A stretch of DNA of 42,791 nucleotides from IMG/VR virus record IMGVR_UViG_2537562189_000008, positions 1 through 42,791 of that record; one strand, 5' to 3'. The notes under the pieces were generated by a model. That model was not told the origin of the DNA. It saw nothing but the letters and a program-made list of their open reading frames with translations, and did not search any database. Below are positions 1,249 through 8,871 of this stretch, in pieces. Positions within the stretch are counted from its first letter, which is position 1. The number at the start of each line of letters is the position of its first letter. A program made the position numbers and the translations under genes. This DNA comes from a virus. Lineage: Duplodnaviria; Heunggongvirae; Uroviricota; Caudoviricetes.

Positions 1249-1854
1249 ATGTTGAGGTTTTTCTTAATCTTTACACCTATTCACATTTCTGGCGAGCATA
1301 GAATGATAAGCAGCAAGGAAGATTACAAGTCATACCTTCTCCTTGACGAAAAGGCTATGAGGCTTCAGGGGTCAAGGTTAAAAAATATAATATTCAACGA
1401 TATATGGAGATTCCTTAGATTGCTAAGGAGGTTGGAGTATCTTACTAATTGCAAAGGAAATAAAGTTTTAATTCTGATTACAAGACTTAGGTTACGCAAA
1501 ATTCAAATGAAACTTGGATTTTCAATACCTATCAATACCTTTGGTCCAGGGTTATCAATACCACATTATGGTAACATAGTTGTTAACGCAGGAGCCAGGA
1601 TAGGTGCAAATTGCCGAATTCATGTAGGTACGAATATTGGCACATCAGCTGGAGCAGGACTTGAATCCCCTGTAATTGGTGATAATTGCTACATTGGTCC
1701 TGGAGCAAAAATTTACGGAAAGATAGTTATAGGTGACAATTGTGCAATAGGCGCGAATGCAGTCGTTAACAAAGATTTTAAAGATGGAAATTGCACTATT
1801 GCTGGCGTCCCTGCCAAGATAACATCATATAAAACATCAAAAGGTTATATATAA
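1249..1854 (+). CDS. Hexapeptide-repeat (left-handed beta-helix) O-acetyltransferase, serine-acetyltransferase/WcaB-like; start uncertain (alternative ATG at 1300)
   Basis: Repeated [LIV]-G-x-x-x-x hexapeptides (NAGARIGANCRIHVGTNIG, IGDNCYIGPGAKIYGKIVIGDNCAIGANAVV); strongly AT-rich relative to flanking phage genes; no clear Shine-Dalgarno at either start. Confidence 0.6.
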   Translation: MLRFFLIFTPIHISGEHRMISSKEDYKSYLLLDEKAMRLQGSRLKNIIFNDIWRFLRLLRRLEYLTNCKGNKVLILITRLRLRKIQMKLGFSIPINTFGPGLSIPHYGNIVVNAGARIGANCRIHVGTNIGTSAGAGLESPVIGDNCYIGPGAKIYGKIVIGDNCAIGANAVVNKDFKDGNCTIAGVPAKITSYKTSKGYI

Positions 1855-3924
1855 TTATTGATAGAAAACAGTTTTCAGTCCTGTGTTAGTCCCAACAGAG
1901 GTAATCCCTCTGTAAAGGCCGACATTACTGTTGGTTGTGCTATCAACCCTAACGATTCCATCAATGTTATTTATAAGTGAATTTGTGGTTTGTACAGCGT
2001 TGACAGCATAAGATTTACTTTGTGCTGATATATTTGATGCAACTAAAGTACCAGTTGTCATTGATACACCAACGCTTGACGAACCACTCTCAAAAACTGA
2101 ATTTTTAACAATAGCTTTTGCAACCCCACCAGAAATGTTTATATCTGCTCCGTTAAATGCCTGACTGATTCTCTTGACGTCTGACACGCTGATCAGAGAT
2201 ATACTTCCACCTGATAATATATCAAAGAAGAATGAAGACCTTGTGGGATTTGAACTTGATACTGAAATATCACTTAAGTAAACATTACCAATATTAAATC
2301 CGTATCTGATTTCTAACAAAATCGCCCCGTCATAACCTTGCCCATATATGCCATTAATATTTACATACGGTGTTGTGTTATTAACTGCCCGAATTGCGAC
2401 TATGTATCTTGATCCTTCAGAGTGAATGTTATTCGCGTTTACCTGCCCGGAAGTTATCTGTAGACCTGCGCTTAGCTCATAGGTTGCTGTCGTCTTAAGA
2501 TAAACATCACTGATAGTATTGAACCCATCAGATGAATCAACACCATTGCCAATCCTTCCTCGCCCACTAACACCACGAACAACACAGGAACTACCATAAA
2601 CACTAACACAACTATACATAGGGTTAGTTGCTGAGGCGTCATCACAAACCGCAAATACATTTGTTACTGTAACATCATTGGCCTGAACTTTGACTGCTCG
2701 CTTAAGTGCATTGTAAGTATAAACGCCATCAACCTTTATTTTCTTCCCGCTGAGCATATTTGATGATGAGTTGTAAATCTGAATAACAACACCATCAGCA
2801 TCTTCCCAAGGGTTTAGCTTGTAAATCCTTACGTTACTTATAACTCCACTTGATACCTCATCATCATTTGATGGTACTGGATCAAGTGCCGTTCCTACAA
2901 GAATCCCTCGACATGGCCCAATTACATCACCCTGAATACCATTTCCAATGGTGGTAATATTATGTATTGATATGTTATCAACGACAAAATTCAATACAGA
3001 ATTTGCATCTATGAAAATACCATAAGTTAGTTGAGAACCATTACTATCAAAAACATCAACATTCTTAACTACTGGATTAACAGCCCCTGTTTTGATATGA
3101 ACAGGCCTTCTAATTGCCATCATATTGCAGTTAACTTTAATATTGTTAAGCATGCATGAGTTTACTGTTATAAATGATCCTTCATCTCCGATAGCAACAA
3201 TTTCACCATTAATCAAATCTTTCGTAATATTGATGGTGCTGGCTTTAACTGTAGTTCCGTTAAGGTCCACATTCAATCCGTGCGCCATAATAGATTCAAT
3301 TGAATATTTCGCATCAGCACTCGTATCGATATACTGAGATGGCCAAACCAGTGTGTTATGAGGTGAAGAGTATTTATAAGATAGGCCATTCCTTGTTAAA
3401 TATAACTGTGATGCTGATACCGAAAACCCATCGGCAAGACCTGTAATTCCCGGAGCATATTCGTAAATCTCACCTGAGGATGTGGTGATTTTAAAACCAA
3501 CATTTGGATCTGAATCCATGGCACCATGTAATGCCCCATTTACTAAATTAACCCCACCAACACCATCTAACTCCTGTCTTAGTTGGTCAGGGTCATACTT
3601 CAGCACATTAGGAAAATAGAACTGCTGCGCACCATACGCATCATATACAGCCATAGAATGGCCTTGCACAGTTACGAACTTGGCAATCTGCCCGTTATAT
3701 ACCGGGTAACCAGCAGCGTTAATGATGATTGGTTGCGAAACAGGAATGTGAGAACCGTCTTCGTTTTCCACATAAACCTGAATCTGGTTTTCAGGATTTA
3801 CCGGATCAGTGTCAATTTTACCGATATAAATTTTGCCATTGGCAACCGCTTTAAAAGAACGCGCCATAGTGAAGAGTTGAGAAGGCATGCTCACTACAAC
3901 ATTGGCATTTATTGAATCTGTCAT
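1855..3924 (-). CDS. Tailspike protein with P22-type N-terminal head-binding domain and a divergent beta-helix receptor-binding domain
   Basis: 689-aa ORF; N-terminus [12 protein letters not shown]...[38 protein letters not shown] matches P22 gp9 head-binding domain from memory; remainder is Ser/Thr/Asn/Gly/Val-rich as in beta-helix tailspikes; AT-rich C-terminal portion. Confidence 0.9.
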
Positions 3925-4024: not shown

Positions 4025-4903
4025 TCAGTAGTTATGTACTGAAGGAGGTAATTCTTTATTCTTAAGTCTCATCCATGCGGAAAGATTCGTTGGTCCGTCT
4101 GGCTCATTGATATCAACATCTCGTGTGTGATTGATTAAAACGTCTCTCGCCATTCCGATAACATACGAGAATTCATGACCGTAGTCGTAGCATCTGCCGG
4201 AATAGTTCGATTGAATTTGTTTTAATGCCGGATACAGTTCGCAGAATAATGCCTGTGAACGGTTAGCATAATCCCATAGCCATACAAGGCTGTTTGCTTC
4301 TTTTGCAGAAAGCTCGTTTGCTTTCTTCTCTTGTTTGCCGATAAACTCGCCTTCAAGCACTACCCTGTGGATGTACTCTACGGCCAGCGGGATTTGTTCA
4401 ATTGAAAGTTCATCAATGCTGTCAATACCAAAACGCTGATGAACCATATTGTATGCATCGTCATAGCGAAGTCCTTTCTTTCCTACCAGCATGTTTACTG
4501 CATCGCGTAGCGCCGTTCTTTCCTCAACAGTGGTTTTCTTGCCTTTCACATACTCGCCATGTTTGCGAATTGAAGGTAGAACTTCTGCTGTTACCCACTT
4601 GCGGAATTTGTGCGGGACCGAACCTTTATTGACAGCATCGCGGCAGCGCAGAACCAATGTATACATACCTGATTCGCTAACAATGCTTAGATTCTGCTCA
4701 CCACCAAGGGTGTAACTTAAAGTTACTCCCTTTTCATCGTCATCAAGTGCAGTAAGCGCCTTGCGTGAGTTAGTCAGGGTTAAAGCATCACAAACATCTT
4801 TTGCTACAAACCACGGCTCACCGCATTTGTTGATGACGCGGATTTCACTGTCGCCGAATTTGAAGATGGTGAAATCGTTTTGTGCCTTTGCTATACTTTT
4901 CAT
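4025..4903 (-). CDS. ant: Antirepressor Ant (Bro-N domain N-terminus); ORF extends to 4969 but start at 4903 has a good Shine-Dalgarno
   Basis: Position downstream of arc as in P22 immI; N-terminal Bro-N-like region ([28 protein letters not shown]); AGGAAA 7 nt upstream of the ATG at 4903. Confidence 0.85.
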
Positions 4904-4971
4904 GTCAATATTTCCTAATCCGATTTGTTGATACCGAAGCCCTGACTGTTCCCGCAGTTGGGGCTTCAACT

Positions 4972-5196: not shown

Positions 5197-5223
5197 GTCA
5201 ATACACTAACTTGGAGTGATGGC

Positions 5224-5475
5224 ATGGCTAGAGATGATCCGCACTTTAACTTCCGTATGCCTATGGAAGTAAGGGAGAAATTAAAATTCAGGGCGGAGGC
5301 GAATGGGAGATCAATGAACTCCGAGTTGTTACAAATCGTCCAAGATGCTCTATCAAAACCATCGCCTGTGACTGGATATCGCGACGATGCAGAACGACTC
5401 GCTGATGAGCAGTCCGAACTTGTTAAGAAGATGGTGTTTGATACGCTGAAGGATTTGTACAAAAAACCCACCTGA
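5224..5475 (+). CDS. mnt: Mnt repressor (ribbon-helix-helix, maintenance of lysogeny)
   Basis: 83-aa ORF MARDDPHFNFRMPMEVREKLKFRAEANGRSMNSELLQIVQDAL... matches P22 Mnt from memory. Confidence 0.9.
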   Translation: MARDDPHFNFRMPMEVREKLKFRAEANGRSMNSELLQIVQDALSKPSPVTGYRDDAERLADEQSELVKKMVFDTLKDLYKKPT

Positions 5476-5490
5476 CGGTGGGTTTCATAA

Positions 5491-6459
5491 TTAGATTTCT
5501 GGTTTCATTCTTCCAAAAACCTTTTCTATTCCTTTTTCGTATTCTTCTCTTGTCTCACTCATCGCTGCGACCCCAAGAAGCTTACCGATATGCTGACGCA
5601 AAGCCTTGACACCAATTTCAGAAAGGAACAGATGCAACTTATCAGATTGTTTTCCGTTCTCGTCTCGGCTGGCTCGAATCTGTTCAAGGATTTTACCTTT
5701 ACTCTTTGCTAGCGGGGTGTATATCTGCATGTTGGTTAGCTGCCCAAAACGAATAGGCCGTCCTTTCTCTGGCCTATTCAGGCCGTACAGTCGATACCAC
5801 TCCTCGTATAGCTCATCTGGAAATTCCTTTTCATATTGACGAGCCTCTTCACGAACAAACGCTTTGAACTCGTCAATGACAGCCTGAACTTCTGGACGAT
5901 AACCAGCAAGCGCATACGCAACCCCCTTAATTCCCGCCTTAGCGGAGGCATTAATAAGTCTCTGTGCTGCGGCGGCTGCCTTTAACCGTGATTGTGGTAG
6001 ATCGTCATTATCTTTGGCTTCTATTAGTGCCCTACCAATATCAACAATTGCTGTAATGTCATAACCTAACGCTTGATGAACGGTTTTAGACTTCGAAGTA
6101 AGTTGAAATTTATAGGGATTTTCCATTTTTCGCTGCAATTCTAGATCTCGGTATTTGCTCATATACTGAGCGCCAAGCAGTTGATCTAAATCCCTGGCAT
6201 GTTCACCAATCCCTAGCAACTGAGATAATCCAGTTTTCGTAACAACGACAGTTTTCGACTCGTCATCCAGTACATAACATTCAGCATCAATGCCAAAATC
6301 ATCTAAAAAGTTACCACGATGAGTTGCCCTGAGAATCTTACTTTTCCATCTTGCAGCAGCTGCTTTCTTTGCTATTTCAGAACGCTGCTCTTTAGTCAGC
6401 GACTTTGCGCGAGCGATCCCGCCCTTAGCTTTCCCTTCGCCACTTTTCTTTTCAGTCAT
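5491..6459 (-). CDS. Hypothetical protein (322 aa) with basic N-terminal KGG/ARW-type motif; occupies the sieA-equivalent accessory slot; ORF extends to 6522 but the ATG at 6459 has a Shine-Dalgarno
   Basis: N-terminus MTEKKSGEGKAKGGIARAKSLTKEQRSEIAKKAAAARW; AGGTG 8 nt upstream of ATG at 6459; no recognisable catalytic motif. Confidence 0.6.
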   Translation of the reverse strand: MTEKKSGEGKAKGGIARAKSLTKEQRSEIAKKAAAARWKSKILRATHRGNFLDDFGIDAECYVLDDESKTVVVTKTGLSQLLGIGEHARDLDQLLGAQYMSKYRDLELQRKMENPYKFQLTSKSKTVHQALGYDITAIVDIGRALIEAKDNDDLPQSRLKAAAAAQRLINASAKAGIKGVAYALAGYRPEVQAVIDEFKAFVREEARQYEKEFPDELYEEWYRLYGLNRPEKGRPIRFGQLTNMQIYTPLAKSKGKILEQIRASRDENGKQSDKLHLFLSEIGVKALRQHIGKLLGVAAMSETREEYEKGIEKVFGRMKPEI

Positions 6460-6615
6460 AATGCAAGCACCTTTGTTGTGATTTATGCTTGCATTATATA
6501 CACTGTGCACACATACAAGCAAGCATAAAACTAAAACAAAATGCTTGCATTACAACCGCGCTACTCCAACTACACATTATCATCTGGTATCCTGCTCAAA
6601 ACTAAGGAGGTTGGT

Positions 6616-7005
6616 GTGAAGCAATTTCTTGCTGCTATGTTCTTATTCATATCTTTTGGGGCTACAGCAGAGTGCTGGGTCGTTGGAGATATGCGCGGAA
6701 TAAGCTATTCAGAACGAAATAATTTCCATCCGGAAGAAGATGGTTTTAGTGGAACATTCATCATTAAGACAAGCGGTGAAGATGCCAGCATCACATATTC
6801 TGGGACAGATGCGGGCGGCATGGCTTACAAAGCATTGTCTAAAAACTCCATCATAGGAATCGGCGCGAATGGCGAAACTCAACGCGTTATCGACTCATGG
6901 GTAATACATCCTACTGGAACAGTTTTAATGTCAAAAACCATTTCCGGTTATGGAAATATGGATTCAACCAAAGCTTTTGTTGGAAAAGTAAAAAGAAAAT
7001 GTTAG
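6616..7005 (+). CDS. Small secreted/periplasmic protein of unknown function (GTG start; signal peptide)
   Basis: AAGGAGG 6 nt upstream of GTG at 6616; product begins VKQFLAAMFLFISFGATAE (hydrophobic signal peptide, A-x-A-like cleavage site, no lipobox); ORF track lists the longer ATG-initiated frame 6541..7005. Confidence 0.55.
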   Translation: MKQFLAAMFLFISFGATAECWVVGDMRGISYSERNNFHPEEDGFSGTFIIKTSGEDASITYSGTDAGGMAYKALSKNSIIGIGANGETQRVIDSWVIHPTGTVLMSKTISGYGNMDSTKAFVGKVKRKC

Positions 7006-7029
7006 CGATTGAATCCAATTTCCCATACG

Positions 7030-8871
7030 TTACTGCTGTGTTGCCTCAGTAGCAAACAGCGGTCTGATGGCATTCGCAGCGTTATTTAGCGCTCTTTCAT
7101 AGGCTGGTGTTCCTGCTTTGGTGTTTGCCAAACGAAGAAGCATATTCCTTGCGGCTTTGGACTCATACAAACGCATCATTGCACCAAAGCCAGCCTCAAG
7201 CCCCATTGATACTCCAAGAGTCGCAGTTGCGCCAATCGTCCTTATCCTGTTGGCTTGTGATTGCCCCGTCTGAGTTACTACATTTGCGGTGTCTGACCTT
7301 GCTGTTTGCTGTAGAACTTCATGAAGAGCATCAAGCTCTTTCATGTGCTTTCCAGAAAAAATAGTGTTGTAAATTTCACCGCCTGACTGAGATTTAAGCT
7401 TATTAACTTCAGTGATGAACTTGGCTGGAGAGTCACCGGCCTTTTCCGCTATTTTGCTGACGTAAGCTGCACGCATAGCATCTTTCCCTTTATCATCCAA
7501 TGCGCTCCAGATTCGTTTCACGTCAGATGGCTTTCTGCTTAATACAACGGTATTTATAAGTTCAGGACTGGCTTCACTGCTTGCCTTGTTGAGCTTGTTA
7601 GCAATGTTTTTATTAAGCACCTTATTATAAACGTTTGCATAATCGGAATTTGCTTTAAGGTATTTTGCTGCGTCTGACGCACCGAGGTTTTTTGCAACTG
7701 CGTTACGAAGGTCTTTTGACATTGCATTCTCTACCATATTGGTAGCTGCTTTTGCCTGGTTGGGGAAGACCATAGAATCTCCCTGAACATTAGATCTAAA
7801 TGCTGTTCTGTGCTGACGCAAGAGATCAAACGTAACATCCAAATCAGTTGCAGGGTTTGCTAATTCTTCACGTAGGTTACGCAAGGATGTAAGCAGGCTT
7901 TGATTGGCTGAAGTCCCAAGCCGTTCCTGTCTTGCGATCGCTGTATTCAGAGCATTCATGGTATTTGTGGTATCAACTGCGGCATTACCCATTTTATTGG
8001 TGACGTCATTGATAACAGCGCCAGCGGCATCCTTCCGCCCCCTTAACGTGGTGGTCAGAGATTTCACCACATCATCAGGGTTGTACTCACCAAAACGGTC
8101 AAAATAATTGCTTACCAGCTTACTACGCGTTGCATATTGCTCCGCTCTCTTTGAGCCTGTCCCGAGCAAAGCCCCCTCGGCATCCTGAGTAAGGCCGCGA
8201 GTGAAAGCATTTTTCGGCGGGATAACATCAGATGTCATTGGTGTCACGCCCATCGATTCTGATGTGGCAATTTTCTTCGCCACTTCTGGCGCAATATCAC
8301 CTTTTATAGCCGTTATTCCACGCCCTATTCCCTTTGCTGCTGCGGAAAGAACCCCCTGAGCGGCAAGGTTAACTCCGGCGTTTCTTGCTGCATTTTGTGC
8401 GAAATCGCCTTTCTGATTTGCAGCCTCTGCCAGTGAGCCAATAGCCATGCTTCCTGCCGTTCCAACTCCTGGAACTAAATACCCACCAATTGTTTCACCG
8501 GCTTGCGCGTAGGGGTCTGTCGGTCTGTCTACTGGACGATAAACATCATCCAAAACCTTGGGTCCACCAAGCCCCTGACTGATTGCATTAATCAGACTTG
8601 CGCCACCCTGCAATACGTCAAATGGTATGTTTACCAGACCACGACCAGCCTGTTCTGCAATTTGCCCTGCACTTTGACCACCAGTGAGCCAATCGCCAGC
8701 TTGTTGCATCAATGATGGTTCTTCACGTGCTGGTTCATTGCTATCCTGGCTGACAGTTTGTTGCTGAACAGACTGTCCAGCAAAATACTCATCAATGGCA
8801 GATCCAATATCTTCCGTGCTCGTACCATCAGGGAAGGTAAATGTCTTACCGTTTGCAGTTACTTTCATCAT
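7030..8871 (-). CDS. Ejection (injection) protein, P22 gp16-like
   Basis: 613-aa ORF at the position and size of P22 gene 16, last of the 7-20-16 ejection-protein triad. Confidence 0.8.

What the first reader, a model, noticed from the sequence alone, without database searches (positions are those of the whole stretch)
5491..7005. Uncharacterised divergent gene pair at the sieA-equivalent accessory slot
Between mnt and the gp16-like ejection gene, where P22 carries sieA, this prophage has a 322-aa protein with a basic KGG/ARW-type N-terminus (minus strand) and, diverging from it, a GTG-initiated 129-aa signal-peptide protein with a strong Shine-Dalgarno (AAGGAGG). Neither resembles SieA or anything I can name. 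The slot and the secreted partner make a superinfection-exclusion or defence role a reasonable hypothesis.
Basis: partly seen in the sequence, partly recalled or inferred. Interest (0 to 1): 0.7.

Follow-up and report, generated by a model that had tools for sequence, protein, structure and literature searches.

The report
Two independent prophage accessory gene cassettes
Two unrelated add-on genes sit side by side in a P22-like phage genome and are not a functional pair: one is a small secreted barrel protein, related to the old 'Hex' phage-exclusion gene of phage 434, in the slot where P22 keeps sieA, and the other is a self-contained P63C-family gene with its own conserved promoter and operator.

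Summary
Both ORFs are real and sit at the stated coordinates, but they are not a gene pair. In 5,426 complete E. coli genomes the large gene occurs in 46, the small gene in 146, and the two together in only 12. In viral contigs they assort independently (Fisher p = 0.73).

The small gene (6616-7005, +) starts at the same GTG, with the same Shine-Dalgarno and leader, as P22 sieA. That leader drives at least 13 unrelated cargo families, 12 of them with a hydrophobic N-terminus. This cargo is a full-length homologue of phage 434 Hex ('heterologous exclusion' of P22) and Sf6 gp38, in the same PHROG (phrog_2651). It has a signal peptide, two conserved cysteines and a confident 8-stranded beta-barrel model. 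A periplasmic superinfection-exclusion role is therefore the best-supported reading, by homology and position only.

The large gene (5491-6459, -) is a P63C-family protein (phrog_2384). It is a mobile single-gene unit also found next to cI and in nin regions. Its sigma-70-like promoter lies between two GCAAGCA-N16-TGCTTGC palindromes, which are conserved in 59 distinct homologous upstream regions. Autoregulated DNA binding is my inference; its function remains unknown.

Both genes are new members of known families. Interest is moderate.

The parts
5462..5485 (.). Bidirectional intrinsic terminator (CCCACC-N4-GGTGGG; U6 tail on the minus strand) between the convergent mnt and P63C genes. It forms the 3' end of the P63C unit.
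   Evidence: RNA fold -16.2 kcal/mol, z -3.9 on the minus strand and -14.4 kcal/mol, z -3.2 on the plus strand. Matches of the P63C unit in other genomes begin at about window 5461. A terminator is annotated at the same place in epsilon34.
5491..6459 (-). ORF A: a 322-aa P63C-family protein. It has a basic KGG...ARW N-terminal motif (aa 10-38), an alpha/beta core (about aa 40-190) and a helical P63C domain (aa 199-286).
   Evidence: Pfam PF10546 E 6.8e-14, 52.7 bits against a cut-off of 26.1; phrog_2384 E 1.7e-104. More than 1,682 homologues. AF2 model pLDDT 73.8 overall, with the core at 85-95. RefSeq WP_000136767.1 'P63C domain-containing protein'.
6463..6492 (.). Proximal palindrome GCAAGCA-N16-TGCTTGC. 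On the minus strand it runs from just after the -10 hexamer to 3 nt before the P63C ATG, and its spacer holds the Shine-Dalgarno-like AAAGG.
   Evidence: The cores are at least 95% conserved across 59 distinct homologous upstream regions while the spacers vary. The spacer is 15-16 nt in 57 of 59 regions. The ATG follows 1-4 nt after the palindrome.
6493..6522 (-). Putative sigma-70 promoter of the P63C gene, read on the minus strand: -35 TTGCTT (6522-6517), an 18-nt spacer, and -10 TATAAT (6498-6493).
   Evidence: Read by hand. The -35 matches only 3 of 6 positions, so the strict scan missed it. A TATAAT/TATTAT-like hexamer directly abuts the third core in most of the 59 homologous regions. 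No transcript data.
6519..6548 (.). Distal palindrome GCAAGCA-N16-TGCTTGC, overlapping the putative -35 of the P63C promoter.
   Evidence: The gap between the two palindromes is 25-26 nt in 55 of 57 regions. There are 200 exact 7-mer cores in the 59 regions, against 0.57 expected from shuffles.
6565..6618 (+). sieA-type expression cassette head: a -35-like TCCAA (6565-6569), an extended -10-like TGGTATCCT (6585-6593), the leader, Shine-Dalgarno AAGGAGG (6604-6610) and the GTG start (6616-6618).
   Evidence: Aligns with the annotated P22 PsieA, leader and sieA GTG. In P22, 85 bp upstream of sieA was included in a single-copy construct that excludes (PMC10883804). Matches to the P63C unit in other E. 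coli genomes end at about 6618. The 22-nt leader plus GTG precedes 13 unrelated cargo families in IMG/VR.
6616..7005 (+). ORF B: a 129-aa Hex-family (phrog_2651) secreted protein. The predicted signal peptide covers aa 1-18 (6616-6669). The mature protein is 111 aa and 11.9 kDa, an 8-stranded beta barrel with conserved Cys20 and Cys129.

Best explanation
The locus holds two separate single-gene accessory cassettes that happen to be neighbours in the variable region between mnt and gene 16 of a P22-like (Lederbergvirus-type) phage genome.

(1) ORF B is the cargo of the 'sieA cassette'. A conserved promoter-like element, leader, Shine-Dalgarno and GTG start are shared with P22 sieA and with at least 12 other, mostly envelope-targeted, cargo proteins. 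ORF B is a Hex-family protein. My inference is that the prophage expresses it as it does sieA, that it is exported by its signal peptide, and that it folds in the periplasm into a soluble 8-stranded beta barrel, probably closed by a Cys20-Cys129 disulfide. I further infer that it blocks a superinfecting phage during DNA delivery across the envelope, for example by binding the incoming trans-periplasmic ejection apparatus or a host envelope factor that the apparatus needs. This would match the exclusion of P22 reported for 434 hex.

(2) ORF A is a P63C-family moron with its own promoter and terminator. The promoter is bracketed by two GCAAGCA-N16-TGCTTGC palindromes that are conserved across the family. 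I infer that the protein binds these sites and represses its own gene, possibly through its basic N-terminal motif or its weakly Bro-N/Ant-like core. Its downstream function is unknown; I guess a regulatory or antirepressor-like role rather than defence.

Shown: the coordinates, the homologies, the independence of the two genes, the shared leader, and the conservation of the operator-like sites. Inferred: expression, localisation, disulfide, exclusion, and autoregulation.
For: Independence. The pair is adjacent in 12 of 5,426 E. coli genomes, against 46 with P63C and 146 with ORF B. The IMG/VR contingency table gives odds ratio 0.54, p = 0.73. The same P63C protein sits beside SieA, and ORF B sits beside other neighbours.

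Cassette. The leader and GTG are shared with P22 sieA, epsilon34 gp14 and Emek orf129. There are 13 cargo families, 12 with a hydrophobic N-terminus, and the Hex-like family is the commonest at 30 of 117. In P22, 85 bp upstream of sieA was included in a single-copy construct that excludes, where the authors consider expression likely governed by PsieA.

Hex homology. Supported. The Hex ORF of PMC3564112 is this family's 134-aa protein plus 24 upstream codons, and the paper's sHex start E43 equals E19, the predicted signal-peptidase site. The exclusion phenotype of hex is described in PMC3564112.

P63C unit. It occupies the slot next to cI in lambdoid prophages, preceded by a terminator. It also occurs in the nin region of 933W. 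The operator architecture is conserved in 59 distinct upstream regions and in ST104 ORF23, which is 31% identical in protein. The diverged 933W-type variant carries a different palindrome.
Confidence: 0.6

Rival explanations
1. The two divergent genes form one two-component defence or exclusion system, with a cytoplasmic P63C protein working together with a secreted partner.
For: They are adjacent, divergently transcribed and share a 156-bp control region in this window and in 11 other E. coli genomes. Both families also occur in the other classical prophage-expressed slot, downstream of cI.
Against: The two genes assort independently. They are adjacent in 12 genomes, against 46 and 146 with each alone, and the IMG/VR odds ratio is 0.54, p = 0.73. 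P63C lies next to at least 5 different cargo families, and the Hex-like gene is most often next to a 139-aa protein (phrog_6823) or directly after mnt. The recombination junction falls between them, at the cassette leader. Neither protein has a PADLOC hit.
Confidence: 0.04
2. ORF B works as published for 434 Hex: a cytoplasmic protein that stabilises lysogeny by blocking RecA-stimulated autocleavage of the prophage repressor, not by excluding other phages.
For: PMC3564112 reports three results. Deleting hex raises spontaneous induction in recA+ cells but not in recA- cells. An sHex fragment inhibits cleavage of the 434 and P22 repressors in vitro. sHex partly complements the deletion in trans. 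The window's phage is P22-like.
Against: Every family member has an N-terminal signal peptide followed by a conserved (A/S)-x-(A/S)|xCW motif and a C-terminal Cys. The published sHex begins exactly at the predicted signal-peptidase site. The protein studied was a 61-residue fragment of an MBP fusion built on an ORF extended by 24 codons upstream. Here the gene is not linked to the repressor; it sits in a slot whose other cargo are almost all envelope proteins.
Confidence: 0.1
3. ORF B is a periplasmic protective factor that benefits the host and is unrelated to phage entry. Examples would be an inhibitor of lysozyme, an inhibitor of a type VI or colicin-type effector, or a ligand-binding barrel.
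Against: There is no sequence or profile match to MliC/PliC, Rap/Tai or any Pfam, NCBIfam or PDB family. The one member with a reported phenotype (434 hex) is reported to exclude a phage. The slot's founding member, SieA, is an exclusion protein.
Confidence: 0.15
4. The P63C protein is itself an anti-phage effector, acting by abortive infection or as a nucleic-acid-targeting protein kept silent by its operator until infection.
For: It occupies classical prophage moron slots: the rex/hex position next to cI, the immI accessory region, and the nin region. It has tight-looking promoter control and conserved acidic, His and Cys residues.
Against: There is no PADLOC hit, no recognisable catalytic fold and no report in the searchable literature. 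Its only structural echoes are Bro-N, Ant and KilA regulatory domains, and those are weak.
Confidence: 0.12

Closest known systems
Phage 434 Hex ('heterologous exclusion') = Sf6 gene 38 = the ORFs next to the repressor in HK446, HK633 and Sf101 (phrog_2651)
   Same: Full-length homology at 27% identity, linked by a continuum of intermediate sequences. Same PHROG and same size (129 against 134 aa). Both have a signal peptide, the mature N-terminal xCW(V/I)V motif, the C-terminal STK(A/S)FVG-V...C motif, two conserved Cys, and prophage carriage.
   Different: Location and presumably promoter. Hex lies directly downstream of cI and is co-transcribed from PRM, whereas ORF B lies in the sieA cassette next to gene 16. 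The sequences are far diverged. No phenotype is known for ORF B. The published molecular role of Hex (repressor protection) is hard to reconcile with the secreted architecture.
P22 SieA (Pfam SIEA, PF26849)
   Same: Same genomic slot and orientation, and the same leader, Shine-Dalgarno and GTG start. Both are prophage accessory genes next to the ejection-protein genes, whose products are SieA's genetic targets.
   Different: There is no sequence or architectural relationship. SieA is a 164-aa polytopic inner-membrane protein. ORF B is a soluble secreted barrel with no transmembrane segment after the signal peptide.
P63C-domain proteins (Pfam PF10546, named after Myxococcus phage Mx8 p63; phrog_2384; 933W L0095, ST104 ORF23, BP-4795)
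   Same: Passes the Pfam threshold and matches phrog_2384 end to end. Same length class, same N-terminal KGG motif, and the same kind of accessory positions in temperate phages.
   Different: Nothing functional is known for any member, so there is no mechanism to compare. The 933W-type variant (29% identity) lacks the ARW end of the N-terminal motif and carries a different upstream palindrome.
Phage morons and the lambda rexAB slot
   Same: ORF A has the classic moron layout of promoter, gene and terminator, inserted between conserved phage genes. An 80%-identical orthologue sits in the rex-equivalent position after cI.
   Different: There is no homology to RexA or RexB. Expression in lysogens is not shown.
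Periplasmic or envelope exclusion proteins of other phages (T4 Sp and Imm, T5 Llp, phi80 Cor) - recalled from my own knowledge, not tested
   Same: The concept is the same: a small prophage- or phage-encoded envelope protein that stops DNA entry.
   Different: No sequence or demonstrated fold relationship. These were not retrieved by any search here.

Membership tests
Hex family (434 Hex / Sf6 gp38, phrog_2651) | Full-length sequence homology to 434 Hex | tested here: met
   BLASTP E 4e-12 over 129 of 134 aa. tblastn against phages E 1e-4 to 2e-5 at 100% coverage. Both proteins hit phrog_2651, at 9.2e-61 and 1.4e-58. A profile built without Hex finds proteins 48% identical to Hex at E 6e-13 and 1.6e-12 in 1.84 billion sequences.
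Hex family (434 Hex / Sf6 gp38, phrog_2651) | Signal peptide, conserved xCW at the mature N-terminus, and a conserved C-terminal Cys | tested here: met
   C20, W21, G28, D42, W95, G123 and C129 are invariant in 52 sequences. 106 of 111 full-length representatives have a Cys in the last 12 residues.
Hex family (434 Hex / Sf6 gp38, phrog_2651) | Position immediately downstream of the cI-type repressor, on the PRM transcript | tested here: not met
   Here the gene lies between the P63C gene and gene 16, behind the sieA-type leader. No second copy lies near the repressor in this window.
Hex family (434 Hex / Sf6 gp38, phrog_2651) | Excludes a heterologous phage (P22) from the lysogen | not testable with these tools
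   The phenotype is known only from PMC3564112, which cites Susskind and Botstein 1980. The original paper is not held.
SieA (Pfam PF26849) | Sequence membership and a polytopic inner-membrane architecture | tested here: not met
   ORF B has no Pfam hit at E <= 1. The model is a signal helix plus 9 beta strands. SieA cargo forms a separate cluster.
SieA (Pfam PF26849) | Genomic slot between gene 16 and mnt/gene 9, with the PsieA leader and GTG start | tested here: met
   Alignment with P22. In E. coli strain elppa4, SieA replaces ORF B next to the identical P63C protein.
P63C domain (Pfam PF10546) / phrog_2384 | Profile match above the curated threshold | tested here: met
   52.7 bits against a cut-off of 26.1, at aa 199-286. 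phrog_2384 E 1.7e-104 over aa 6-321. All 40 aligned homologues match P63C.
Bro-N / KilA-N / Ant N-terminal DNA-binding domains | Profile or fold match of the alpha/beta core (aa 40-190) | tested here: inconclusive
KGG repeat (Pfam PF10685) | Profile match of the N-terminal KGG...ARW motif | tested here: not met
   No hit at E <= 10. The motif occurs only once in the window.
Known anti-phage defence systems (PADLOC-DB v2) | Profile match of either protein | tested here: not met
   No families matched at E <= 1 for either protein.
MliC/PliC-type periplasmic lysozyme inhibitors | Sequence or specific fold match | tested here: inconclusive

The most novel reading that the evidence does not exclude
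The slot next to the ejection-protein genes of P22-like phages may be a cassette-exchange site. A fixed promoter, leader and GTG start would serve as the recombination joint for a large, fast-turning repertoire of envelope-located exclusion proteins. The Hex-family barrel, the commonest cargo, would then be a new class of soluble periplasmic exclusion factor that intercepts the trans-envelope DNA-delivery apparatus. That would also mean the published cytoplasmic mechanism of 434 Hex needs revisiting. Separately, the P63C family (more than 1,600 members) would be autoregulated DNA-binding proteins that recognise GCAAGCA-N16-TGCTTGC.
Probability: 0.3. Interest if true: 0.65.

Novelty: new member of a known kind. 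Interest (0 to 1): 0.42.

Why it matters
Hex is a phage-exclusion gene named in 1980, and a 2024 review of superinfection exclusion does not mention it. This work shows three things about its family. Its members are secreted, two-cysteine beta barrels. The family is the most frequent cargo of the sieA cassette in the sample scanned. It is annotated only as 'hypothetical' in 146 complete E. coli genomes. Together these make the exclusion mechanism directly testable and raise a concrete conflict with the one published biochemical model.

The shared-leader cassette, carrying 13 cargo families of which 12 are envelope-targeted, offers a simple sequence handle for harvesting candidate exclusion proteins.

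For the P63C family, which is large and has no assigned function, the conserved promoter-operator layout gives the first experimentally usable feature.

Neither gene is a new kind of system, and the 'pair' that motivated the finding does not exist as a unit.

Tried and rejected
- PADLOC and NCBIfam gave nothing meaningful for either protein.
- Profile searches of PDB sequences found nothing: 0 hits for P63C and only chance hits for ORF B.
- The idea that the intergenic repeats are operators of the phage's main repressor was rejected. The exact 9-mer occurs only in 6461-6550 and nowhere near the immunity region.
- A known RNA family in the intergenic region was rejected. Only sub-threshold microRNA-precursor hits appeared, reflecting a generic long hairpin.
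- A lipoprotein reading of ORF B was rejected, because Glu at position -1 before the Cys does not fit a lipobox (my own knowledge).
- An outer-membrane-barrel reading is considered unlikely. The strands are short, the mature GRAVY is -0.31, there is no C-terminal aromatic residue, and the terminal Cys pair is conserved.
- My early note that the window is E. coli O111:H8 TW05614 was withdrawn. Only 5200-7100 is identical; the left 5.2 kb matches other strains best, at 97.4%.
- The strict promoter scan found nothing in the intergenic region, so both promoter proposals rest on hand reading plus conservation.
- Literature: 'P63C domain' returns no functional study. The papers by Iyer et al. 2002 and Susskind and Botstein 1980 are not held.
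Full report
**What is there.**
The window is a roughly 42.8-kb P22-like phage or prophage genome. Its left part reads, in order:
- intS at 1-1158
- an O-acetyltransferase-like ORF at 1249-1854
- the tailspike at 1855-3924 (-)
- ant at 4025-4969 (-), with sar RNA at 4905-4971
- arc, then mnt at 5224-5475 (+)
- the two ORFs of the finding
- the gene 16 and gene 20 homologues, from 7030 onward (-)

The stretch 5200-7100 is 100% identical to E. coli O111:H8 TW05614. The rest of the window is a different mosaic, so the source strain is not in the collection.

**The two genes are not a unit.**
Counts among 5,426 complete E. coli genomes:

| Feature | Genomes |
|---|---|
| ORF A allele (>= 80% coverage) | 46 |
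| ORF B | 146 |
| The two adjacent | 12 (8 with this allele, 4 with an 88% variant) |

The identical P63C protein (WP_000136767.1) sits beside SieA in strain elppa4 and beside a different 134-aa ORF in phage vB_EcoP-611R6. ORF B in turn has several alternative neighbours:
- a 139-aa phrog_6823 protein, in other O111:H8 strains and arranged as in epsilon34
- a Rap1a/Tai-type immunity protein, in E. coli C
- a different 349-aa P63C protein, in strain T309.Ta3
- no P63C gene at all, in phage Emek

In IMG/VR contigs, P63C is the upstream neighbour of Hex-like cargo in 2 of 26 cases and of other cargo in 10 of 75. The odds ratio is 0.54 and Fisher's p is 0.73.

**ORF B sits in a cassette.**
Aligning the upstream regions shows about 45 nt, TGGTATCCTGC(T/A)CAAAACTAAGGAGGTTGGTGTG, shared by P22 sieA, epsilon34 gene 14, Emek orf129 and this window. 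After the GTG the coding sequences are unrelated. In P22 this is the annotated PsieA region and sieA start. In P22, 85 bp upstream was included in a single-copy sieA construct that excludes P22, and the authors consider expression there likely governed by PsieA (PMC10883804). Matches to the P63C unit in other E. coli genomes stop at window position about 6618, which is the GTG.

I scanned IMG/VR for the 22-nt leader plus GTG. The 117 complete ORFs that start at that GTG fall into 13 unrelated families:

| Cargo family | n |
|---|---|
| Hex-like (ORF B type) | 30 |
| epsilon34 gp14-like (annotated as similar to HK620 hckB) | 28 |
| 109-aa family | 15 |
| 62-aa family | 11 |
| 103-106-aa family | 7 |
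| 75-aa family | 7 |
| 140-aa family | 5 |
| SieA | 4 |
| five rarer families | 10 in all |

Twelve of the 13 families begin with a signal peptide or a transmembrane segment. The slot is therefore a shared expression head with exchangeable, envelope-directed cargo.

**ORF B is a Hex-family protein.**
tblastn against phage genomes found full-length 27% matches to the ORF immediately downstream of the repressor in 434, lambda-imm434, Sf6 (gene 38), HK446, HK633 and Sf101. The pairwise BLASTP E-value is 4e-12. The shared features are the signal peptide, the mature N-terminus ECW(V/I)V, and the C-terminal STK(A/S)FVG-V...C motif.

Several results confirm the relationship:
- Both proteins hit phrog_2651, which PHROGs labels 'unknown function'.
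- A profile search seeded with both sequences recovered 115 proteins that form a continuum from 91% to 22% identity.
- A profile built only from ORF B relatives recovered proteins 48% identical to Hex at E about 1e-12, among 1.84 billion sequences.
- C20, W21, G28, D42, W95, G123 and C129 are invariant in 52 sequences.

The Hex ORF studied in PMC3564112 (158 aa) is this 134-aa protein plus 24 upstream codons that overlap cI. The authors' mass-spectrometry-defined 'sHex' runs from E43 to N103. That corresponds to E19-N79, so it begins exactly at the predicted signal-peptidase site. According to that paper, Susskind and Botstein (1980) showed that lambda-imm434 lysogens of Salmonella exclude P22 and that hex- lysogens do not. 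I could not read the original paper.

**Structure of ORF B.**

No solved structure is related by sequence. The mature protein is 111 aa and 11.9 kDa, with GRAVY -0.31. The short strands, the hydrophilic composition and the conserved terminal Cys pair favour a soluble periplasmic barrel over a membrane barrel. The first and last strands would be neighbours in a closed barrel, which fits a disulfide between the two Cys. This is inference, because I could not measure distances in the model.

**Most likely mechanism of ORF B (inferred).**
The prophage would express ORF B from the sieA-type promoter. The protein would be exported and would interfere with DNA delivery by a superinfecting phage in the periplasm. 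P22-like phages build a trans-envelope conduit from gp7, gp20 and gp16, and SieA escape mutations map to gp16 and gp20 (PMC10883804). A periplasmic binder of that apparatus, or of a host factor it needs, is therefore the simplest model.

Two rivals remain. One is the published cytoplasmic repressor-protection role of Hex. The other is a host-protective inhibitor role. Both are listed with their evidence under rival explanations.

**ORF A is a self-contained P63C unit.**
Pfam P63C covers aa 199-286, and phrog_2384 covers the whole protein. More than 1,682 homologues exist. Relatives occupy three different accessory slots:
- An 80%-identical orthologue lies downstream of a cI-type repressor in lambdoid prophages of Klebsiella and relatives, after a terminator. 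This is the rex/hex position.
- ST104 ORF23 (31% identity) is likewise next to cI.
- 77%-identical copies lie in Salmonella P22-like prophages, beside SieA or a 161-aa ORF.
- The 933W-type variant L0095 lies in the nin region. A copy that gives identical PHROG scores occupies the immI slot in strain T309.Ta3.

**The P63C control region.**
The 156-bp intergenic region contains two palindromes of identical geometry, GCAAGCA-N16-TGCTTGC, at 6463-6492 and 6519-6548. Read on the minus strand, the 26 nt between them carry a perfect TATAAT (6498-6493), which abuts the proximal palindrome. A TTGCTT lies 18 nt upstream and overlaps the distal palindrome. The ATG follows 3 nt after the proximal palindrome, and the spacer holds the Shine-Dalgarno-like AAAGG (read by hand).

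The exact 9-mer ATGCAAGCA occurs three times in the 42.8-kb window, and all three copies are in this region. I compared 59 distinct upstream regions, taken from 82 homologous loci. They span protein identities from 100% to 58% (ST104 ORF23, also included, is 31%) and include both the cI-slot and immI-slot contexts. The results:
- The cores are at least 95% conserved while the spacers vary.
- 57 of 59 regions have at least 4 cores when one mismatch is allowed.
- There are 200 exact cores in total, against 0.57 expected by shuffling.
- The palindrome spacers are mostly 15-16 nt, and the gap between palindromes is 25-26 nt.

Many loci have a strong terminator (GGTCGCAGAAATGCGGCCTTTTTT) just upstream. 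A bidirectional terminator at 5462-5485 follows the gene in this window. The diverged 933W-type variant, whose N-terminal motif lacks ARW, carries three TGCACGT half-sites instead.

The unit moves between unrelated phage backbones and between genera. The simplest reading is therefore that the P63C protein binds these sites and regulates its own promoter. A conserved host factor, or a hairpin function (the region folds at -48.9 kcal/mol, z -7.45), is not excluded. From what is known of P22 late transcription, the gene's orientation would also expose it to late-operon read-through (my own knowledge).

**Comparison and novelty.**
Both proteins belong to catalogued families, phrog_2651 and phrog_2384/PF10546, and near-identical copies are common in public genomes. 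Four things appear not to have been noted in the sources I could search:
- the commonest sieA-slot cargo is a Hex homologue
- the Hex family is secreted
- the slot is a shared-leader cassette with many envelope cargos
- P63C genes carry a conserved two-palindrome promoter

A 2024 review of superinfection exclusion does not mention Hex, and 'P63C domain' retrieves no functional study. My verdict is that these are new members of known kinds. The exclusion hypothesis is plausible for the small gene only, and interest is moderate.

Noticed in passing
L009 1929-2405 (phage 434) compared with PMC3564112: The published 158-aa Hex ORF equals 24 upstream codons plus a 134-aa protein that has a clear signal peptide. 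The mass-spectrometry-defined sHex fragment starts at E43, which is E19, the predicted signal-peptidase site. This is hard to reconcile with the proposed cytoplasmic action on RecA and repressor.
   Followed up: partly
window 6616 vs 6637; L001 7438-7806: RefSeq starts the small gene at an internal ATG (122 aa), which cuts off the charged start of the signal peptide. The GTG at 6616, with AAGGAGG upstream, is the same start used for P22 sieA.
   Followed up: yes
L011 2917-2956 (ST104 ORF23) and many IMG/VR loci: Annotated or longest-ORF starts that give 'MQAHFT...' are probably artefacts. That ATG is the third operator half-site (ATGCAAGCA) read as codons. The conserved start is the ATG just after the fourth half-site.
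   Followed up: partly
L006 3101-3436 (E. coli strain C prophage): A Rap1a/Tai-family (type VI immunity-like) protein lies between mnt and a Hex-like gene. The same variable region therefore also carries periplasmic immunity-type cargo.
   Followed up: no
L005 2965-3384; L014 2793-3212 (epsilon34 gene 15): A 139-aa protein (phrog_6823, with a weak sub-threshold PEGA hit) is the commonest upstream neighbour of Hex-like genes, in 12 of 26 cases. It occupies the same position and strand as P63C. Its function is unknown.
   Followed up: partly
L012 2882-2917 (933W, upstream of L0095); L007 3383-3418: The 933W-type P63C variant has three TGCACGT half-sites at its start instead of GCAAGCA, and a different N-terminal basic motif. 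This may be co-variation between protein and site, but it rests on only two classes.
   Followed up: partly
window 4905-4971 (+): sar antisense RNA (Rfam RF00262, 71.6 bits, above the gathering score) lies at the arc-ant junction, confirming a complete P22-type immI region.
   Followed up: yes
window 1249-1854 (+): A 201-aa ORF between the integrase and the tailspike is annotated as a serine O-acetyltransferase in matching E. coli genomes. It is a candidate O-antigen-modifying (lysogenic conversion) gene.
   Followed up: no
L008 3501-4284 (E. coli MRE162): The 3' half of this P63C gene is fused to a DnaB-like helicase fragment and placed beside the cII/cro/cI genes. This looks like a large internal deletion of a P22-like prophage that ends inside the P63C gene.
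   Followed up: no
PQ850609.1 (phage Huey): A Hex homologue there is annotated as the lipid A acylation protein PagP. This is probably a fold-based mislabel that stems from the 8-stranded barrel.
   Followed up: no
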